From: a virus | Strand: one strand, 5' to 3' | DNA: 64,000 nt | IMG/VR virus record: IMGVR_UViG_3300017527_001400 | Location: 1-64,000 of that record | In this document: positions 2,733 through 60,958 of the stretch, in pieces | Layout: the number at the start of each line of letters is the position of its first letter | How positions within the stretch are numbered: the stretch's first letter is position 1 | The notes under the pieces: generated by a model | The model's input: only the letters and a program-made list of their open reading frames with translations | What the model was told of the DNA's origin: nothing | Database searches by the model: none | Position numbers and translations under genes: made by a program

Positions 2733-3248
2733 ATGTTTAATTTTTTTGAATGGATCAAACAGAGCTCGACAATCAGAGGCATCATAGCCCTTGCTACCGT
2801 GCTTGGATATGGCGGAGCTAAGTGGGCAGATGCTACAACGCTTCAGGCGATCATATTGGCTTTGGGTCCGTTGTTCTATGCCATATATAACATGTTCCGA
2901 AAGGACAGCAATGGCACCGGCAATGGAACGGCAGCTGGTATTGCCATAGTTCTTCTCTTGTTTCCTATAGGGGTTCAAGCGGCAAGCATTAACTTAGCAC
3001 CTATGGCCGGTGTAACAGAATATACTGCAGAAGTAGACGGGAATATACAAGCCCCTCCATTCGTAACGAACGGTGATGGAAGCGCAAGTTATAATCTCGA
3101 GCCTCTAGGCCTACCTGATGGTGTCCATGTTTTCCGATTCATGGTAACCGGAACAGATAATGGTGTACCAACCTGGGGAGGTGGTTGGTCAGCCCCTTTC
3201 GAGGCCGAAAAAGTGGGGGTGCCGACGGTCACTGGACTGTCAAATTAA
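2733..3248 (+). CDS. holin-like N-terminus fused to beta-rich (Ig/FN3-like) domain
   Basis: WIKQSSTIRGIIALA holin-like start, 2-3 TM segments, then GLPDGVHVFRFMV...GWSAPF. Confidence 0.5.
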   Translation: MFNFFEWIKQSSTIRGIIALATVLGYGGAKWADATTLQAIILALGPLFYAIYNMFRKDSNGTGNGTAAGIAIVLLLFPIGVQAASINLAPMAGVTEYTAEVDGNIQAPPFVTNGDGSASYNLEPLGLPDGVHVFRFMVTGTDNGVPTWGGGWSAPFEAEKVGVPTVTGLSN

Positions 3249-12853: not shown

Positions 12854-13045
12854 TAACATATATAACAAGGCTCTTGAAAGATGGTTTCGCCTGAGTGACT
12901 AAGCCGTGGAACCCACCTATCGGCAGCAGAGCCTGTAAAGATAAATGAGGGAACTCGGGCTAAGTTAATACTAAGAAATAGAATAGATCAACCAGGCAAA
13001 GATGATGTGCTGGTGGGAATGTCGTCAATGCCTGCAAAAAAACAA

Positions 13046-13195
13046 TTTGCTGATGGCGTAGGAAAGAGATACTTCGCAATAGGATGCCCTAGTCGTGGGT
13101 TCGAGTCCCATCGTTCTCCCCATAATTTTATGGAGAACGTAGCTCAGCTGGTAGAGCAGGTTATAGCTTCTCTCTCCGCCTTTTTCCTCAGCAAA
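13046..13195 (+). ncRNA. YrlA-like Y RNA with circularly permuted tRNA domain
   Basis: TTTGCTGA...TCAGCAAA stem; T-arm GTGGGTTCGAGTCCCAT precedes D-arm GTAGCTCAGCTGGTAGAGCA; upstream of Ro60. Confidence 0.85.
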
Positions 13196-13203
13196 ACTTT
13201 ATA

Positions 13204-13284
13204 TAAGCATTGATGGCGCAGGTCAGAGATACTTCGATACTTCTAATATCACAAAGCTCTCTGCCGTCTCTTCCTCAATGCTTA
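13204..13284 (+). ncRNA. Y-RNA-like gene 3
   Basis: TAAGCATTGA...TCAATGCTTA stem plus shared motif. Confidence 0.75.
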
Positions 13285-13288
13285 CGAT

Positions 13289-13362
13289 TTGCCAGTGGCG
13301 CAGGTCTGGGTTACTTCGCGCAAAACGAAACCATATACCCGAACCACTACTTTCCCTGGCAA
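13289..13362 (+). ncRNA. Y-RNA-like gene 4
   Basis: TTGCCAG...CTGGCAA stem plus shared motif. Confidence 0.75.
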
Positions 13363-13371
13363 GCTCCTTAC

Positions 13372-13437
13372 ATACCGATGGCGTAGACAGGAGATACTTC
13401 GGACATGAAAATACTCCCGTCGCCTGTTCCTCGGTAT
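13372..13437 (+). ncRNA. Y-RNA-like gene 5
   Basis: ATACCGA...TCGGTAT stem plus shared motif. Confidence 0.75.
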
Positions 13438-13474
13438 ACGAGTTTGCCGCAACTTACTTCTAAGGAGAGAAAAA

Positions 13475-14845
13475 ATGAAATTGAATACCGCAACAAAACA
13501 TCGTATCCACACCCACGAAGGCGCTCCTGCCAAAGCAATCAACGCTGAGTTACAACTCGAAAGGTCTATCATGGCTAATATGCTGTGGGAAAACCAGTTC
13601 TATGAGTCCGGTCAGGCAATTGCCGACAGGATCAGCGACCTTTGCAAGCAGGTCTCTCCCGAATTCATCTCTTCCATGGCAGTAAAAGCCCGGCATAAAA
13701 TGTACCTCCGGCATGTTCCTTTGCTGTTGGTTAAAGAGCTTGCAAATCTTTGCAATGCCAACACCGGTAGCGTATGGAGGATGAAGGCTCAGCTCATTCG
13801 CAGAACCCTTGCTTCTGTTATCAATCGCCCCGATGAACTGTCGGAATTTCTGGCTATCTATTGGAAAGACGGCAAGGTACCTCTGTCCAATCAGATCAAA
13901 CGTGGTCTGTCTGATGCCTTCAACAAATTTGATGAATACCAAATTGCGAAATACAATCGCAAAAGCGACATCACGTTGAAGGACGTACTGACGCTATGCC
14001 ATGCGAAGCCTAAAGATCTTGCACAGTCAGGAATCTTTGAACGGCTTTTGAATGACAATCTGGCAACACCCAAGACCTGGGAAGTTGGTCTCTCCGGTGC
14101 AAAGGCTCATGGCGTATCCAAGAAGGATGTCTGGGAAGACCTGCTTCGTGAAAATAAAATGGGTGGCATGGCAGTGCTTCGAAACCTGCGGAACTTTGAC
14201 CGTGATGGTGTCGATCGAAATCTGGTTCGTGAAGCCATAGTGAAAATGAAACCCTATCGCATTTTGCCTTTCAGATTCATTGCAGCTGAAAAGTATGGGC
14301 CCAATTATTCTGATGTCATCGAAGCCAAGATGCTCGAATGTACCGAAAATATGACCAAGCTCACTGGTAGGACCATCTTGCTGGTTGATGTCTCTGGGTC
14401 TATGTTTTCACCTATATCCCAGCGATCTGATATTAATCGGATGAAAGCTGCTGAAGGCCTGGCTATCTTACTTCGGGAAATTTGCACAGAGATCCAGATT
14501 ATATCTTTCTCTTATCATCCTGTGAATGTTCCTAACAGGAGAGGTTTTGCCCTCGGAGAAGCGATCACGAGGTCTCAGGACAACGGTGGAACCAACTTTG
14601 GTGAAGCTGTTTCTCAGGCATATAATATCCCTCATGATCGGTTAATTGCCATCACAGACGAACAATCTCATGATCGTGTGCCTGATCCTAAACATGGCAT
14701 TCCTTCTTATGTGATTAACGTTGCTTCATATCAAAATGGCGTTGGTTACGGGCCTTGGACACATATCGATGGTTGGTCTGAAAATGTTGTTCGATATATC
14801 CAGTCGCTGGAGGGACTCGATGCACATAGTAAAAATGACATGTAG
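13475..14845 (+). CDS. rsr: Ro60/Rsr TROVE-domain RNA-binding protein
   Basis: THEGAPA start, LWENQFYESG, FDEYQIAKY, TWE, AVLRNLRN, LPFRF, VWA VDVSGSM, ITDEQ, IDGWSE. Confidence 0.92.
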   Translation: MKLNTATKHRIHTHEGAPAKAINAELQLERSIMANMLWENQFYESGQAIADRISDLCKQVSPEFISSMAVKARHKMYLRHVPLLLVKELANLCNANTGSVWRMKAQLIRRTLASVINRPDELSEFLAIYWKDGKVPLSNQIKRGLSDAFNKFDEYQIAKYNRKSDITLKDVLTLCHAKPKDLAQSGIFERLLNDNLATPKTWEVGLSGAKAHGVSKKDVWEDLLRENKMGGMAVLRNLRNFDRDGVDRNLVREAIVKMKPYRILPFRFIAAEKYGPNYSDVIEAKMLECTENMTKLTGRTILLVDVSGSMFSPISQRSDINRMKAAEGLAILLREICTEIQIISFSYHPVNVPNRRGFALGEAITRSQDNGGTNFGEAVSQAYNIPHDRLIAITDEQSHDRVPDPKHGIPSYVINVASYQNGVGYGPWTHIDGWSENVVRYIQSLEGLDAHSKNDM

Positions 14846-15577: not shown

Positions 15578-15853
15578 ATGACATCAAAACAAGTTGATAG
15601 ATTAATTGAAGAAATCGGCAATGTTGCATATAACTTAAAATATTTAGGAAATGGAAATGCTTCAACTCAATTTGGAGCAATTGAAGGCCATTCAATGCAA
15701 GTAAAGGAAGGGCTTGAAACCTTAGCCTCTGCAGTTTCAAGTGCTGGAGGAGAAATAAACATAAGTGATTTACCAACTGCAATCGAGGGTGCTGGTAGAG
15801 ATATTAAAGATGGGCTGCTATCCATAGCGGCTGCGATAAATGATGCGGGGTAA
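15578..15853 (+). CDS. hypothetical protein
   Basis: ORF with LKYLGNGNASTQFGAIE. Confidence 0.55.
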   Translation: MTSKQVDRLIEEIGNVAYNLKYLGNGNASTQFGAIEGHSMQVKEGLETLASAVSSAGGEINISDLPTAIEGAGRDIKDGLLSIAAAINDAG

Positions 15854-15922
15854 GGTAGTCTGGTCTAACCTAGGTGTCTCATAAGCACCTCTTCGCGGGT
15901 TCAAATCCCGCCCCCGCTTCCA
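15844..15922 (+). tRNA. tRNA with CAT anticodon (Met or Ile2)
   Basis: GGTGT-CTCATAA-GCACC anticodon arm, GGTTCAAATCC T-arm, CCA end. Confidence 0.85.
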
Positions 15923-15954: not shown

Positions 15955-16230
15955 GTATTCGAATAGTATTCCATATCATGCCTTCAGAAGCGATCAGATC
16001 CGATTTCATTAATAATAGCATGGGATAGCATGCCTTGCCGCATTATCCAGTTTGCTTCGACCCTATCTTATATAATTCAAATTCTATTTGGATTCGGTTC
16101 GATAAAACTCTACGCAATGCACTATCATCAAATGCAAAATCTCATAGGATCCAATAAAATCCTACGTTTATTATTTCAATACTGTACAAACAAGGATTGG
16201 CCTTAACAGTACAATAGTATTGAATGCTTA
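15955..16230 (+). repeat. NNN-AT pentamer array 1 (putative guide RNAs)
   Basis: cgaAT agtAT tccAT atcAT gccTT cagAA gcgAT cagAT ccgAT ttcAT...; continues up to the RBS of the RAMP gene. Confidence 0.8.
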
Positions 16231-16244
16231 TAAGGAGAGAGAAA

Positions 16245-16997
16245 ATGAAAAAGAAAGCACCAGGACCGTACACATTCAGAATTGTTGGACAGGCAGATTC
16301 CGCGTGGCGCGGGGCAGTACCGGACGATTGTGCAGATCTCAAAGTTGCACCCGAGAAAAATGTAAAGGAGCTCCTTTACATGATCGTCAAGGCAGAAGTT
16401 GAAAGACTCACACAAAAGGGTGATACAAAGGGGGCAGCTGAGGCTGTCAAAAAGTATCAAGATCATTCAAAACATCAATATGCGAATCCATTGAATGTTT
16501 TCAAAAAAGACAAGCAAAACGGTGATATCCCATGTATCGGTGCTCATTGTCTTTATGGTGGGTTTCGTGATGCTGCCGTTGAGCTTTTCCCGCAGTATTT
16601 CTATAAAACTGCTGCAGACCGTGGCAAAAAGCCATCGAACAAGCATCTTAGAAAATATGTTCATGTCCGTCCTTATCATGTTTTCTTGCATCGGCCTTCA
16701 ATGAATGGTAATGGTAAGATTATAAAAGAAGTGGATGGTGTTCATGATCAACATCCTACGCCAAAAGTCGGGGCCTTTTGTCGTTATGAATTTATTGATT
16801 CTCCATTTCAATTTGAATATCTTCTAAATGTTTCCATCGAAGGCCCCTTCAAAAAGTTCCTGGAAAATCAACACGAAGTTAAAATGGCAATCGTTCAATC
16901 AGCAAATGCCGGTCAAGGCGGCGGAAGGGCAGCAGGTTATGGAATGTGGAGGATACTCAAGTGCAAGGTTGAAGATGGCCTGTCGTATACGCCGTAA
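16245..16997 (+). CDS. stand-alone Cas7/RAMP-superfamily protein
   Basis: GDIPCIGAHCLYGGFRDAA resembles the RAMP P-x-I-x(4)-L-x-G-x-x-R helix; C-terminal Gly loop GQGGGRAAGYG; no other cas genes in window. Confidence 0.75.
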   Translation: MKKKAPGPYTFRIVGQADSAWRGAVPDDCADLKVAPEKNVKELLYMIVKAEVERLTQKGDTKGAAEAVKKYQDHSKHQYANPLNVFKKDKQNGDIPCIGAHCLYGGFRDAAVELFPQYFYKTAADRGKKPSNKHLRKYVHVRPYHVFLHRPSMNGNGKIIKEVDGVHDQHPTPKVGAFCRYEFIDSPFQFEYLLNVSIEGPFKKFLENQHEVKMAIVQSANAGQGGGRAAGYGMWRILKCKVEDGLSYTP

Positions 16998-17034
16998 AAT
17001 CCCTAAAATCGCAACAAATACGGAAGGAGTAATC

Positions 17035-17229
17035 ATGTCAAAGATCACTGACACGCTAACAGATGCTGCAGATAAGGTTCTCAATGGTGAAATTCCATTG
17101 AAAACCGGTGAAGTCGTTCATAAACTGGGCAATTCGCTTGGAGTCGCAAAAAACTCCGAGTGTCGTGCACAGGAAATTGGACTGGAAGACGACACAAAAG
17201 CCGCACTGGATGCCATCAAAACAGAGTAA
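17035..17229 (+). CDS. small protein downstream of the RAMP gene
   Basis: AAGGAG RBS, 64 aa, followed by hairpin GGGTAAGCGGCAATTGCCGTTTACCC. Confidence 0.6.
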   Translation: MSKITDTLTDAADKVLNGEIPLKTGEVVHKLGNSLGVAKNSECRAQEIGLEDDTKAALDAIKTE

Positions 17230-17271
17230 ACGGAAACCTTGGGTAAGCGGCAATTGCCGTTTACCCATGTC

Positions 17272-18550
17272 TTCCTATCCTGTGTTGTTCGATAGTATGC
17301 ATTTAGATACCATAGACTCGTATTTTATTCATAAGAAATGTCATACGGTTCCGTTCGATCCCTTATCTCAGGATCCGATAATATGCTATGCATTATAGAA
17401 TTTGCCTTGCTTAGGTAGCATATGTTTCTATTTGATCAATGATTGATTCAATACCATCGAATTGAGTCCTCTGTGATACAATGTAATAGAATAAATGTAT
17501 TTAATATCATTGCATGGAGTTCGATAAGCTTCCATCAAATCATATGCATTATTTTATTAACTGGAATTGAAAAAGATCCCTTCGCATGGAATGTATAGTC
17601 CGCTATAGTACCGTTCCATAATACACGATGCTATGCTTTTGAATAAATAATTTGATCTAGTAATATTTGATTCCGTGAGATGCTATCTTATATTATGAAT
17701 TAATCTCATCTCATCAGATATTATGCGTTTCGATTCGATTTGATCCGATCTATAATCTCATGCCATATTATATTAATCGATAACTCAAGGTCCGATCCCA
17801 TTCGATTCGATGAAATAAAATATTATGCAAAATTAAAATACAATAATTTAGAGTGGGACCGTATTTGAACCTATTCTATTTTATATTATCGCTTTAATAC
17901 TCAATACCATCAGACCGTATTATATGCCTTCGCATCTGATCGTATGACATAATCAATTGCATCGCATGCGATCGCGCATAATTGAACCAAATATTATGGA
18001 ATCAATAATTCAATAACATATCATCAGGCTATATGCCATTGAATATGTTCCGATTTTATCCACCAATAGTATGCCATCGGATAGATTGTTTTGTAATGTC
18101 ATAATCTGCCATTCGCAATGTCTTATTTTACAATCGAACATTATGGCTTGGCTTAGTCTTCCATAAAATATATTATTTAATTGGAATTTGATTTTATGCC
18201 TTCAAGAAGTATCCGATCCAATTCATAATTGCATCAGATTTTATACAAATAAATATTGTCTCGTTTAATTCATAAATGTCATCCGTTAATATGGCTTGGA
18301 ATTTGTTGCTATAGCTACTTTACGATTCGATAAACAATTCCATATCATCCAAATACATTGAATTATATGCAATTAATAATCAATTAAAATTGTTCCCAGT
18401 ATTGTTCAATTGGATGCGATCAGTTGAAATAAATCATTCCATTTTATATGACTCATTGATATCGCTTTCTATGACATGGAATATTTCTCTTCATAAAATA
18501 AAATTAATTGGCACATCACGCTTTCTTATGGGATATAATGTTTTACATTA
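17272..18550 (+). repeat. NNN-AT pentamer array 2 (about 20-25 blocks of ~9-11 pentamers)
   Basis: No credible ORF over 1.28 kb; e.g. 17705 ctcAT ctcAT cagAT attAT gcgTT tcgAT tcgAT ttgAT ccgAT; blocks separated by AAT-type phase shifts. Confidence 0.85.
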
Positions 18551-18589
18551 AACTTTACACACACAATAAAATAAAGGAGGAACAAACTC

Positions 18590-18934: not shown

Positions 18935-19243
18935 AATAAAAGCGGGCGTAGCTCAAAGAGGTAATGTCAAAAGGGTGCTTAGCAGAAAGACGTCGACGCT
19001 TGACAGAAGATTAGGACAAGCCAATTTTGGACATTGAGTAGTGGACCAACCAAGACACTGCTGGGTAATACCATCGAGTGCGAGATGGAAATAGTATGCA
19101 TAGAGGTCGAGCTTCGTCAGTCTGGATTAACCAGTGATCCGTTCCACAAGTAACTTGGTGCGCTGACAGTTCCATAATAATAGCTGCCTCTCCTATGTCC
19201 AATAACGTCCGACCACAAAGGTTATCATACTGTGTTAAGCTTT

Positions 19244-19721: not shown

Positions 19722-19817
19722 GCGGGCGTAGCTCAAAGAGGGGTAAGCGCACCCTTACGATAGAGCGCCGTGCCACCAGCACGGAGGTCGGAGGTTTGAC
19801 TCCTCCCGTCCGCTCCA
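19722..19817 (+). tRNA. atypical tRNA-Gly(ACC) with enlarged D-loop
   Basis: GCGGGCG/CGTCCGC-T-CCA Gly acceptor; CCGTG-CCACCAG-CACGG arm; extra GGGT..ACCC hairpin in D-loop. Confidence 0.7.
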
Positions 19818-20018
19818 AGGAAAACCATGCATAAAACAACAAATACAACTACAAAATATATATTCTCTGAGAATGATGTCATTAATATGATTGATGCTTT
19901 CTTGTTGAAACATGAAGAAGGTGGTGAAATTAACTTCATGAATGCGGTTGTTCGGGCAAGAAGTGCCAATTCATCCAATGCATCTGTGCCTGTAGGCCAG
20001 TTGGAACTAACAATCTAC

Positions 20019-33834: not shown

Positions 33835-34050
33835 ATGGAAGGATGGAAATGTCCAGTATGCGGAAGGGGTCTTGCACCATTTGTTAATGAATGCCCATGC
33901 TATAAAGTAGATACTGTACAAGATGGGATCTCATGTATAGATTATTATTGGGAAACTTGTCCATTATGTTGGGTTTCTCATAGAAGAGGTGAGCCATGTA
34001 ATTGCGGATCGGTTTATAGTAGTGGTTCAGCCCCCATGCCGGCCCATTGA
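33835..34050 (+). CDS. small Zn-ribbon protein lying inside the TIGR-like array
   Basis: GWKCPVCGRGLAPFVNECPC; its RBS lies within a repeat spacer. Confidence 0.65.
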   Translation: MEGWKCPVCGRGLAPFVNECPCYKVDTVQDGISCIDYYWETCPLCWVSHRRGEPCNCGSVYSSGSAPMPAH

Positions 34051-34264
34051 AAGAGAGCAATCCAAAGGATAGAAGGCCCTCGGAAACCAAGCAATCCATA
34101 AGACCCTAGGCCAGGAAGTTATATTAACACGGTACGCTGAAGCCTCAAGGGTCAAGTAATCCATAGGATAGTAGCTAAAATAGGCCCTCGGGAACCGAGC
34201 AATCCATAAGACCCTAGGCCACTATTTCGAAGCCATTGTTTAAGAGTAACCCTAAAGGAGGGAG
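34041..34264 (+). repeat. TIGR-like array segment B (5 units)
   Basis: CCN-N9-AG-YAAY-CCW-N9-AG; unit at 34075 is nearly duplicated at 34183. Confidence 0.75.
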
Positions 34265-44449: not shown

Positions 44450-44481
44450 CCACAAAAGAGGAGAAACCCATGAGCATCGTG
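44450..44481 (+). promoter_or_regulatory. TIGR-like unit overlapping the RBS and start codon of the Nop-domain gene
   Basis: CCA-caaaagagg-AG-aaac-CCA-tgagcatcg-TG; ATG at 44470. Confidence 0.6.
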
Positions 44482-45264
44482 CTGAAAGCTATCGTCAGAG
44501 GCCATTACGACTTACAAAAACTAAGAATTCAGGCTGGGAATCGAATTATTGCGAATTTTCGGTCAAAATTGGACATTGCGCCGTCCGATAAGGCTGAAAA
44601 AGCTGCCTTATCGTCAATAAAGACCGAATTTGCGGCTCTACCAGCCATAAAGTCCAAGAAACACTTCAAAGGCACGCCAATAATTGCCGAATATCCGGAA
44701 TATGTGCTGGTTAAGAGCTACGTTGCCCTGTTGGAAAGCGAAAAACAAGTCATCAAAGAAATCACCCAGATCGTCAACGAACATCCGCTGTACATCTCGT
44801 TCCTATCCTCCATCAAGGGTATTGGTCCACTCATGACCGGGATCCTCCTGACAGAAATCGATATCTCCAAGGCCGATACGCCGGCAGCCCTGTGGAAATA
44901 TGCTGGACTTGACGTCACCTCAAAAGGTGAGGGCCGCTCCCGCCGGGCAGAGCATCTAGTCGACCGAGAATATACCAAGGCCGACGGAACTGTCGCCACA
45001 AAGAAATCCATTACCTATAATCCACGCCTGAAGACCAAACTTATGGGAGTCCTGGCACCATCCCTTATCAAACAGCAGTCTCCGGACTATGCTCCAGTTT
45101 ATTACGAATACAAAACCCGTCTCGAAACCAGTCGACCGGAAATGGTCAAAGGCCATATGCACATGATGGCCCTGCGATACATGACGAAGCGCTTCCTGAA
45201 GCATCTGTATTTGAATTGGAGGAAACTCGAAAATCTGTCGGTGACTGAACGATGGACATCGTAG
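44470..45264 (+). CDS. Nop-domain / IS110-C-terminal-like RNA-binding protein without nuclease (TasA-like)
   Basis: YDLQKLRIQAGNR coiled coil; FLSSIKGIGP, ALWKYAGL, YNPRLKT, KGHMHMMALRYMTKRFLKHLY; no N-terminal DEDD/RuvC or HNH domain. Confidence 0.75.
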   Translation: MSIVLKAIVRGHYDLQKLRIQAGNRIIANFRSKLDIAPSDKAEKAALSSIKTEFAALPAIKSKKHFKGTPIIAEYPEYVLVKSYVALLESEKQVIKEITQIVNEHPLYISFLSSIKGIGPLMTGILLTEIDISKADTPAALWKYAGLDVTSKGEGRSRRAEHLVDREYTKADGTVATKKSITYNPRLKTKLMGVLAPSLIKQQSPDYAPVYYEYKTRLETSRPEMVKGHMHMMALRYMTKRFLKHLYLNWRKLENLSVTERWTS

Positions 45265-60574: not shown

Positions 60575-60958
60575 ATGAGACTCGAGACAGTTGAGTGTGT
60601 ACATCCTGCGAATAGCACGCAGAAAATGATTATCAATAAGTCGGACTATAACCCACTCGTTCATGTTTTGTGGGAAGACCGTGTCAATGAAGCCTTAAAA
60701 GAAAAGGCCATTAAAGAAAAAAAGGCCGAAGAAAGAAAGGCAGCTAAAAAAGAGAAAGATCGAAAAGAAGCTGAGCTGAAAAAGGCTGCTGAAAACGAAA
60801 AGAAAAAGGCTGACAAAGAGAAGGCCGACAAAGAGGCCAAAGAAAAGGCTGACGAAGAAGCCAAGGCTGAAAAAGAAGCCAAGGAAAAGGCCGACAAAGA
60901 GGCCAAGGCTGAAAAAGAAGCCAAAGACAAGAAAAAAACGTCCGGGGCAAAACGATAA
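60575..60958 (+). CDS. small head-region protein with K/A/E-rich repeat tail
   Basis: MIINKSDYNPLVHVLW then EKADKEAKAEKEAK repeats. Confidence 0.65.
   Translation: MRLETVECVHPANSTQKMIINKSDYNPLVHVLWEDRVNEALKEKAIKEKKAEERKAAKKEKDRKEAELKKAAENEKKKADKEKADKEAKEKADEEAKAEKEAKEKADKEAKAEKEAKDKKKTSGAKR

What the first reader, a model, noticed from the sequence alone, without database searches (positions are those of the whole stretch)
15955..18550. Stand-alone Cas7/RAMP gene flanked by NNN-AT pentamer arrays: candidate phage RNA-guided system with an interleaved guide code
Seen: a lone RAMP-like gene (GQGGGRAAGYG loop) with no other cas genes or CRISPR. On both sides lie ~1.6 kb of non-coding DNA with 5-nt periodicity: 3 variable nt plus a mostly AT dinucleotide (e.g. 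17652 ttgAT ctaGT aatAT ttgAT tccGT gagAT gctAT cttAT attAT). Pentamers form blocks of ~9-11 separated by short AAT-type phase-shifting linkers. Known: Cas7 subunits polymerise along guide RNA with a fixed step. Inference: one subunit binds each pentamer via the AU and displays NNN, so each block is a 27-33-nt guide. It recalls the phage RAMP plus GGY/NN pentamer (VIPR-type) concept as I remember it, but here the constant motif is AT and all three variable bases appear informative.
Basis: partly seen in the sequence, partly recalled or inferred. Interest (0 to 1): 0.97.

Follow-up and report, generated by a model that had tools for sequence, protein, structure and literature searches.

The report
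Phage VIPR system, A/U-type guides
This uncultured phage carries a divergent member of the VIPR RNA-guided systems first described in 2026: a lone Cas7-like protein flanked by about 28 guide units written in five-base steps, with only two fixed bases (purine-T) per step instead of the published three.

Summary
The window's only 5-nt-periodic DNA flanks the gene at 16245-16997 (z 5.4 and 12.9). The unit on the gene strand is NNN-R-T. Blocks of about 9-12 units are separated by a 7-nt phase-shifting junction.

The protein folds as a Cas7/Csm3-type RAMP with a helical insertion. Every homologous locus with downstream sequence (10 distinct ones) carries the same arrays. Nine also have a conserved ~65-aa partner gene.

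This is a divergent VIPR system, a kind published in 2026 with GGY/NN repeats, so it is a new variant and not a new kind.

What I add concerns the code. Concatenated NNN triplets read as the reverse complement of protein-coding sequence, in codon register. The first two bases behave as strict complements of codon positions 2 and 1. The third tracks the wobble base significantly but imperfectly.

Two guides were checked against IMG/VR. All 11 and all 6 hits fall in frame on catalytic motifs: a primase (window guide 18010) and an ImmA/IrrE protease (relative L014).

Expression, binding, the transcribed strand and DNA-versus-mRNA targeting remain untested.

This scan has already reported such A/T-type VIPR arrays on other phage DNA.

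The parts
15955..16240 (+). Upstream guide array: about 4 blocks of NNN-R-T pentamers. It starts just after tRNA-Met (15844-15922) and runs into the ribosome-binding site of the RAMP gene.
   Evidence: Periodicity z 5.4; segmentation.
16245..16997 (+). vipr-like gene: a 250-aa lone RAMP. Layout is beta1, helical bundle (about residues 30-78), helix-1, thumb hairpins, and the G-loop GQGGGRAAGYGMW at residues 223-235.
   Evidence: AF2 pLDDT 91. Foldseek PDB top hits are Csm3/Cas7, E 1e-6. BFVD top hits are viral RAMP-like proteins, E 3e-12 to 6e-7. The family profile hits Csm3/Csm4 G-loops. 7 of 40 members weakly match Pfam RAMPs.
17035..17229 (+). Small accessory gene (64 aa, three predicted helices; motif G..P.KT.E.VH). 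It plays the role of a vap but is unrelated to SUSP1 vap1.
   Evidence: Conserved in 9 of 9 distinct loci with enough sequence. Model pLDDT 77. No similarity to SUSP1 vap1.
17240..17267 (+). Strong hairpin between the accessory gene and the array; likely operon end or processing mark.
   Evidence: Free energy -26.7 kcal/mol, z -6.95, 0 of 200 shuffles fold as well.
17264..18560 (+). Downstream guide array: about 24 back-to-back guide units with no long conserved tail between them.
   Evidence: Periodicity z 12.9. Segmentation. Not more structured than shuffles, z -1.27. No Rfam family.
18003..18009 (+). Example of the 7-nt junction unit (caaTAAT) that shifts the pentamer phase by +2 between guides.
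   Evidence: Among the 26 junctions of the commonest class, A at -5 and Y at -4 are nearly invariant. One 21-nt junction word is identical between the window and L005.
18010..18062 (+). Guide unit whose triplets are antisense to the primase motif II, G-N-G-I-(H)-A-Y-W-M-F.
   Evidence: The pattern of codon positions 1-2 gave 11 IMG/VR hits, all in frame on SGNGIHAYW[MI][FL] of primase-helicase genes.
18381..18433 (+). Guide unit whose triplets read, antisense and in the preferred frame, S-C-A-H-E-I-G-H-F (an HExxH metalloprotease motif).
   Evidence: Decoding. No exact database hit for this guide. The sister guide in L014 (TVAHELGHL) hit 6 of 6 ImmA/IrrE genes in frame.

Best explanation
This is a phage-borne VIPR-type RNA-guided system.

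The arrays are most likely transcribed on the gene strand and cut, or punctuated, at the 7-nt junctions into guides of about 45-60 nt.

By analogy with the solved VIPR filament, one RAMP protomer sits on each pentamer. It holds the fixed R-U dinucleotide and presents the variable bases.

Shown here by sequence statistics and database hits: the variable triplets, read together, are the reverse complement of protein-coding sequence in codon register. Bases 1 and 2 of a unit complement codon positions 2 and 1. Base 3 of the preceding unit tracks the wobble base.

Shown for two guides: they sit on conserved catalytic motifs (a primase; an ImmA/IrrE protease) of genes found in other viral contigs. 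No guide matches the phage's own genome.

Inferred: the complex binds such genes in rival phages, prophages or satellites and silences them, as published VIPRs do. A third, often-complementary base per step would make recognition contiguous or nearly so, instead of gapped.
For: Fold and family.

Conserved gene-array linkage: all 10 distinct homologous loci with downstream sequence carry the arrays, always in the same orientation.

Mutual information: p1-p2 0.044, p3-to-next-p1 0.026 (z about 7), p3-to-next-p2 0.016, p1-p3 not significant. This is the pattern of antisense codons.

Base composition of p1, p2, p3 equals the complement of codon positions 2, 1, 3 of the phage's own genes.

Stop codons are depleted only in the antisense-aligned frame: 23 of 1112 against 40 +/- 4.5 when p3 is shuffled. 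92 of 110 guides are open in that frame.

p3, given the next unit, follows the codon table (z 5.0; z 3.7 without TA/TG boxes). This is reproduced in the window alone (2 stops against 7.4 expected; 22 of 24 guides open), in L005 and in the other loci.

A likelihood ratio using p1 and p2 only equals a simulation in which all guides are antisense.

Targets: 11 of 11 and 6 of 6 in-frame hits on the primase and Peptidase_M78 motifs. By my reading of the alignments, 7 of the 8 wobble positions constrained by the conserved residue agree with the guide.

No self targets.

Published mechanism: bioRxiv 10.64898/2026.04.26.720920 and .720927.
Against: There is no expression or binding data; no sequencing run was listed.

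No database sequence matches a guide at all 30 positions. The best is 26 of 30, and wobble agreement with hits is only 2-6 of 10.

Guide 18010 has CAG where every primase hit has the catalytic His codon CAY, so the third base is not always matched.

Four other guide patterns gave no true hit.

Sequence similarity to SUSP1-type Vipr is not significant (hhalign probability 0.3% with the single sequence, 9% profile to profile).

The GGY motif that defines published vrRNAs is absent.

The transcribed strand is inferred only from gene orientation and from SUSP1.
Confidence: 0.8

Rival explanations
1. The code is the canonical gapped VIPR code. Only two bases per unit (p1, p2) pair with the target, and the wobble base is skipped. 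The third variable base sits where G1 sits in GGY and is simply not read. Its codon-like signal would then be a passenger, inherited from however guides are made and decaying since.
For: p1 and p2 behave as strict codon complements, whereas p3 is only partly faithful: 45 of 58 TA? codons are Tyr-compatible against 53% expected. Guide 18010 mismatches the invariant His wobble base. In the published system the skip base falls on wobble positions (10.64898/2026.04.26.720920). hhalign places Gly opposite SUSP1 D177, the residue that reads G1 (weak alignment).
Against: A base that is not read should drift to the local A+T-rich background. Instead it keeps the codon-specific signal in three independent locus sets and agrees at 7 of 8 amino-acid-determining wobble positions. 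No templated guide-writing mechanism is known for VIPR.
Confidence: 0.3
2. The complex acts on mRNA, not on double-stranded DNA. The guides would be antisense RNAs that block translation or mark transcripts of rival elements, much as type III CRISPR backbones bind RNA.
For: Essentially all guides are antisense to coding sequence, whereas published VIPR targets lie on both strands. The closest solved folds are Csm3 subunits of RNA-targeting type III complexes. The published Vipr filament can pair with RNA (10.64898/2026.04.26.720927).
Against: The same polarity fits DNA silencing with a preference for the coding strand. In the published structures RNA targets give incomplete filaments, and silencing needs the DNA triplex. 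No nuclease motif was identified here.
Confidence: 0.3
3. The arrays are transcribed from the opposite strand. The guides would then be A-Y-NNN, sense to the target genes, pairing with the template strand.
For: A fixed purine followed by a degenerate pyrimidine (A, then T or C) resembles the G-Y part of GGY. Nothing here measures transcription.
Against: In all loci the arrays keep one orientation relative to the RAMP gene. In several they lie between two plus-strand genes. Long ORFs in this genome are mostly on the plus strand: 71 against 25. SUSP1 vrRNAs are co-directional with vipr.
Confidence: 0.12
4. The periodic DNA is not a guide store. It would be a structural or protein-binding DNA element (curved DNA, an origin, a packaging or partition site) that merely lies beside a RAMP-like gene.
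For: A+T-rich periodic DNA can be structural. No RNA evidence exists.
Against: The period is 5, not 10-11. The variable positions carry codon-phased antisense information and spell catalytic motifs confirmed by in-frame database hits. Linkage to a RAMP is conserved at 39-49% protein identity across otherwise unrelated phages.
Confidence: 0.03

Closest known systems
Type II VIPR systems of Escherichia phage SUSP1 and a Pseudomonas fulva prophage (Vipr + vap1 + vrRNAs; bioRxiv 10.64898/2026.04.26.720920, .720927, 2026.10.15.759431)
   Same: Phage-borne. Lone minimal RAMP with helical bundle, thumb and G-loop. One small accessory gene. Non-coding arrays on both sides, co-oriented with the gene. 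5-nt repeat of fixed plus variable bases, about 10 units per guide. Targets are genes of rival mobile elements, in codon register with the least-read position on the wobble base. No self targets.
   Different: The fixed part is R-U, not GGY, and three positions vary. The third tracks the wobble base. No ~40-nt tail or per-guide promoter; guides abut and are separated by a 7-nt junction. All guides are antisense to coding sequence. The protein is 55 aa longer and shows no significant sequence similarity. The accessory protein is unrelated to vap1.
Non-canonical VIPR-like arrays found by the Evo-PIN language model (GAC/NN, CAC/NN, WGT/NN, TGH/NN; bioRxiv 10.64898/2026.10.21.760802)
   Same: 5-nt period, about 10 repeats, a Vipr-like fold next to the array, and a purine-pyrimidine core in the fixed part.
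   Different: Those motifs are described as three constrained plus two free positions. Here only two positions are constrained. The full motif list is in a figure I could not read, so I cannot tell whether this family is one of their 21 clusters.
Cas7-family backbone subunits of class 1 CRISPR effectors (Csm3/Cmr4 of type III, Cas7 of types IV and VII)
   Same: Best solved structural matches (E 1e-6 to 1e-5, TM 0.5-0.6), the G-loop sequence, and polymerisation along a guide with periodic base flipping (established for Cas7).
   Different: No cas partners and no CRISPR repeats. The step is 5 nt, not 6. The guides are hard-wired in the genome.

Membership tests
VIPR (Vipr + vrRNA) | Lone minimal RAMP: single RRM core with G-loop, thumb and helical bundle | tested here: met
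   AF2 model pLDDT 91 with the order beta1, bundle, helix-1, thumb, G-loop. Csm3/Cas7 are the top PDB hits. Viral RAMP-like proteins are the top BFVD hits.
VIPR (Vipr + vrRNA) | Detectable sequence homology to published Vipr proteins | tested here: inconclusive
   hhalign of family profile A2 against SUSP1 Vipr: probability 0.3%. Against a 24-sequence SUSP1-type profile: probability 9%, E 0.0036, co-linear over 120 columns.
VIPR (Vipr + vrRNA) | Long non-coding flanks holding tandem 5-nt repeats, conserved next to the gene | tested here: met
VIPR (Vipr + vrRNA) | Repeat consensus GGY/NN (YNNGG) | tested here: not met
   The consensus is NNN-R-T over 1222 units. The paper allows 'a related consensus' in some types, and a later preprint reports other cores.
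VIPR (Vipr + vrRNA) | Conserved structured 3' tail after each repeat tract (type II) | tested here: not met
   Guides abut, with only a 7-nt junction between them. No excess structure in the array. The paper also describes tail-less 'staggered' arrays.
VIPR (Vipr + vrRNA) | Viral genome context with a small accessory (vap) gene and no cas genes or CRISPR array | tested here: met
   IMG/VR virus record. Accessory gene conserved in 9 loci. No CRISPR repeats. Neighbouring genes have no Cas domains.
VIPR (Vipr + vrRNA) | Variable bases specify targets in rival mobile elements, codon-phased, with no self targeting | tested here: met
VIPR (Vipr + vrRNA) | vrRNAs expressed, bound by the protein, and able to silence dsDNA targets | not testable with these tools
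   No sequencing run was listed. This needs bench work.
CRISPR-Cas class 1 | CRISPR repeat-spacer array and further cas genes (Cas5/Cas6, large subunit, adaptation genes) | tested here: not met
   No such repeats in the 64 kb. No Cas domains in neighbouring ORFs.

The most novel reading that the evidence does not exclude
This branch of VIPR has moved from the gapped 2-of-3 code to a 3-plus-2 code. Only R-U is flipped out, and three guide bases per protomer read three consecutive target bases. It works strictly antisense to coding sequence, possibly on mRNA rather than on double-stranded DNA. That would make it an intermediate between the VIPR code and the near-contiguous pairing of CRISPR Cas7 filaments.
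Probability: 0.3. Interest if true: 0.8.

Novelty: new variant of a known kind. Interest (0 to 1): 0.6.

Why it matters
VIPR was published in 2026 as the first non-contiguous RNA-guided code and as a proposed ancestor of CRISPR RAMPs.

A natural branch with only two fixed bases per step would show how far the code can be relaxed. Here a third base also tracks the target, the guides have a single polarity, and the arrays have no tails. Such a branch would give a denser guide: 3 informative bases in 5.

It may also bear on how gapped pairing relates to the 5-of-6 pairing of CRISPR backbones.

The decoded guides also serve as a readout of phage-phage conflict. They point at replication (primase) and lysogeny-switch (ImmA/IrrE) genes of rival elements in uncultured communities.

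Tried and rejected
Two gave nothing and one gave 2 chance hits containing stop codons. The reading is also in the non-preferred frame, so I reject it.

Guide patterns for 16084 (WIAADFDDH) and 18381 (SCAHEIGHF) had no exact hits in viral or genome collections.

Local searches of 85 guides under nine pairing rules, against the phage's own genome and related loci, gave nothing above shuffled guides.

All-against-all comparison of decoded guides found no overlaps above chance.

Guide peptides compared with the phage's own proteome were mostly at null level.

Primase relatives were not found in IMG/VR or in the five homolog records.

No family member turned up in the 185,579-species genome collection or in GenBank phages.

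A consensus promoter/terminator scan found no more sites than in shuffles.

L001, L002 and L003 are identical, so they give no substitution data.

The look-up of sequencing runs: no run was listed and no RNA holder was listed.

Complex prediction for the RAMP plus the small protein returned no verdict.

Full report
**1. Observation**

Region 15955-18550 holds the only 5-nt-periodic DNA in the 78-kb virus record.
- Lag-5 identity is 0.41-0.45 against about 0.25, with echoes up to lag 30.
- Against dinucleotide shuffles, z is 5.4 for the upstream stretch and 12.9 for the downstream stretch.
- No other 300-nt window of the genome reaches the threshold.

An EM/Viterbi fit gives the unit NNN-R-T on the gene strand. 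T at position 5 is 88-92% in the five regions first fitted and 91% in the pooled units. Position 4 is mainly A, then G or T, almost never C.

Units come in in-phase blocks of about 9-12. Most blocks are separated by one 7-nt unit (W-M-A-Y-R-A-T), which shifts the phase by +2.

The array is not more structured than shuffles and matches no Rfam family. A strong hairpin (-26.7 kcal/mol, z -6.95) separates the protein genes from the downstream array.

**2. The protein**

ORF 16245-16997 has no Pfam, PHROG or NCBIfam match.

It belongs to a small family: 49 cluster representatives among 1.8 billion.

A model built on a 40-sequence alignment has pLDDT 91.
- Its best solved matches are all Cas7-type subunits: Csm3, and Cas7 of types VII and IV, at E 1e-6 to 1e-5 and TM 0.5-0.6.
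- Its best viral matches are three RAMP-like proteins, E 3e-12 to 6e-7.
- The family profile finds Csm3/Csm4 G-loops in PDB sequences.
- 7 of 40 members weakly hit Pfam RAMPs.

The order beta1, helical bundle, helix-1, thumb, G-loop is the order described for Vipr (10.64898/2026.04.26.720927).

Sequence similarity to SUSP1-type Vipr is not significant. The weak co-linear alignment puts glycines opposite the SUSP1 residues that read G1 and G2. It puts the invariant R228 opposite R179, which holds the pyrimidine. This is suggestive only.

**3. Comparative evidence**

Five viral and ten metagenome loci encode homologs at 39-49% identity.

Every distinct locus with downstream sequence (10) has NNN-R-T arrays right after the gene, always in the same orientation.

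Nine have a conserved ~65-aa helical accessory protein. It is unrelated to SUSP1 vap1.

The host phages are otherwise unrelated.

No member was found in isolate phages or in prokaryote genomes.

**4. What is known**

VIPR systems were described in 2026: a Vipr RAMP plus vrRNAs of 9-16 YNNGG repeats, a 1-nt skip rule, and silencing of rival phages and satellites. I confirmed the SUSP1 locus layout directly.

A later preprint reports 21 clusters with other three-base cores and about 10 repeats.

The present locus is therefore a VIPR-type system with a further reduced core.

**5. The code**

An earlier first-reader note gave me the lead of translating the decoded triplets. I tested the code on 110 guides (1222 units) from the window and nine relatives.

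- *Mutual information.* It is high between p1 and p2 (0.044), between p3 and the next unit's p1 (0.026, z about 7) and p2 (0.016), and between p2 and p3 (0.016). It is absent between p1 and p3. That asymmetry is what antisense codons predict.
- *Composition.* The composition of p1, p2, p3 matches the complement of codon positions 2, 1, 3 of the phage's own genes.
- *Stop codons.* They are depleted only in the antisense-aligned frame: 23 of 1112, against 40 +/- 4.5 when p3 is shuffled. 92 of 110 guides are open in that frame.
- *Codon table.* p3, given the next unit, follows the codon table (z 5.0; z 3.7 without the stop-prone boxes). The sense assignment gives z 0.3.
- *Reproducibility.* The effect repeats in the window alone, in L005 and in the rest.
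- *Polarity.* A likelihood ratio using p1 and p2 only equals a simulation in which every guide is antisense.

The first two bases therefore behave as strict complements of codon positions 2 and 1. The third is a significant but imperfect complement of the wobble base.

**6. Targets**

The codon-position-1-2 pattern of window guide 18010-18062 gave 11 IMG/VR hits. All are in frame on SGNGIHAYW[MI][FL] of primase-helicase genes.

The pattern of L014's first guide gave 6 hits. All are in frame on the FTVAHELGHL motif; the two genes scanned (L033, L035) match Peptidase_M78 (ImmA/IrrE).

For scale, an 18-base and a 20-base pattern from other guides found nothing in the same collection.

By my reading of those alignments, 7 of the 8 wobble positions whose class is fixed by the conserved residue agree with the guide. 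I estimate the chance of that at about 0.03. The exception is the catalytic His codon.

No hit matches all 30 positions, so the true targets are not in the collections searched.

The integrase reading of guide 17896 failed.

No self targets were found.

**7. Mechanism and limits**

*Shown:* the fold, the conserved linkage of gene and arrays, the unit and junction structure, the codon-phased antisense information, and the motif-level targets.

*Inferred from the published structures:* one protomer per pentamer, R-U held by the protein, and silencing of rival elements.

*Open:*
- which strand is transcribed;
- how the junctions are processed;
- whether p3 pairs with the target;
- whether DNA or mRNA is bound;
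- how guides are written.

**8. Verdict**

The kind is known, so this is a new variant.

The same scan has already reported A/T-type VIPR arrays, including an antisense reading, on other phage DNA.

Noticed in passing
window 13475-14845 (and 13000-13470): A Ro60/TROVE plus vWA protein is encoded by the phage (Pfam TROVE E 4e-19). It follows about 450 nt without a convincing ORF, which might hold a Y-RNA-like partner.
   Followed up: no
window 18941-19240 and 19723-19820: The 20-nt word GCGGGCGTAGCTCAAAGAGG, which looks like a tRNA 5' half, occurs twice next to called tRNAs. ARAGORN did not call either copy. They may be tRNAs with long inserts or introns.
   Followed up: no
window 34040-34221 and 44470-45264: Direct repeats spaced 34 nt apart, and an ORF with an IS110-type Transposase_20 domain. 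Other first-reader notes call this pair TIGR/Tas-like. If that holds, the phage would carry two unrelated RNA-guided systems.
   Followed up: no
window 17538-17558 and L005 7527-7547: A 21-nt junction word, AATCATATGCATTATTTTATT, is identical in two arrays whose RAMP proteins are only 39% identical. It may be a conserved processing or promoter signal.
   Followed up: partly
L001 about 3064-3126; also L004, L011 and L016 upstream of the small gene: A conserved hairpin-bearing leader (TGCTTACA...TGTAAGCA) and a strong ribosome-binding site precede the accessory gene in loci where an array separates it from the RAMP gene. This leader is absent in the window.
   Followed up: no
L005 9022-9069 and 9544-9591: A 48-nt A+T-rich element containing TATAAT is repeated inside the 2.6-kb array of a jumbo-phage relative. 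It may be an internal promoter that subdivides the array.
   Followed up: no
window 60777-60923: A 42-nt tandem coding repeat rich in Lys, Ala and Glu.
   Followed up: no
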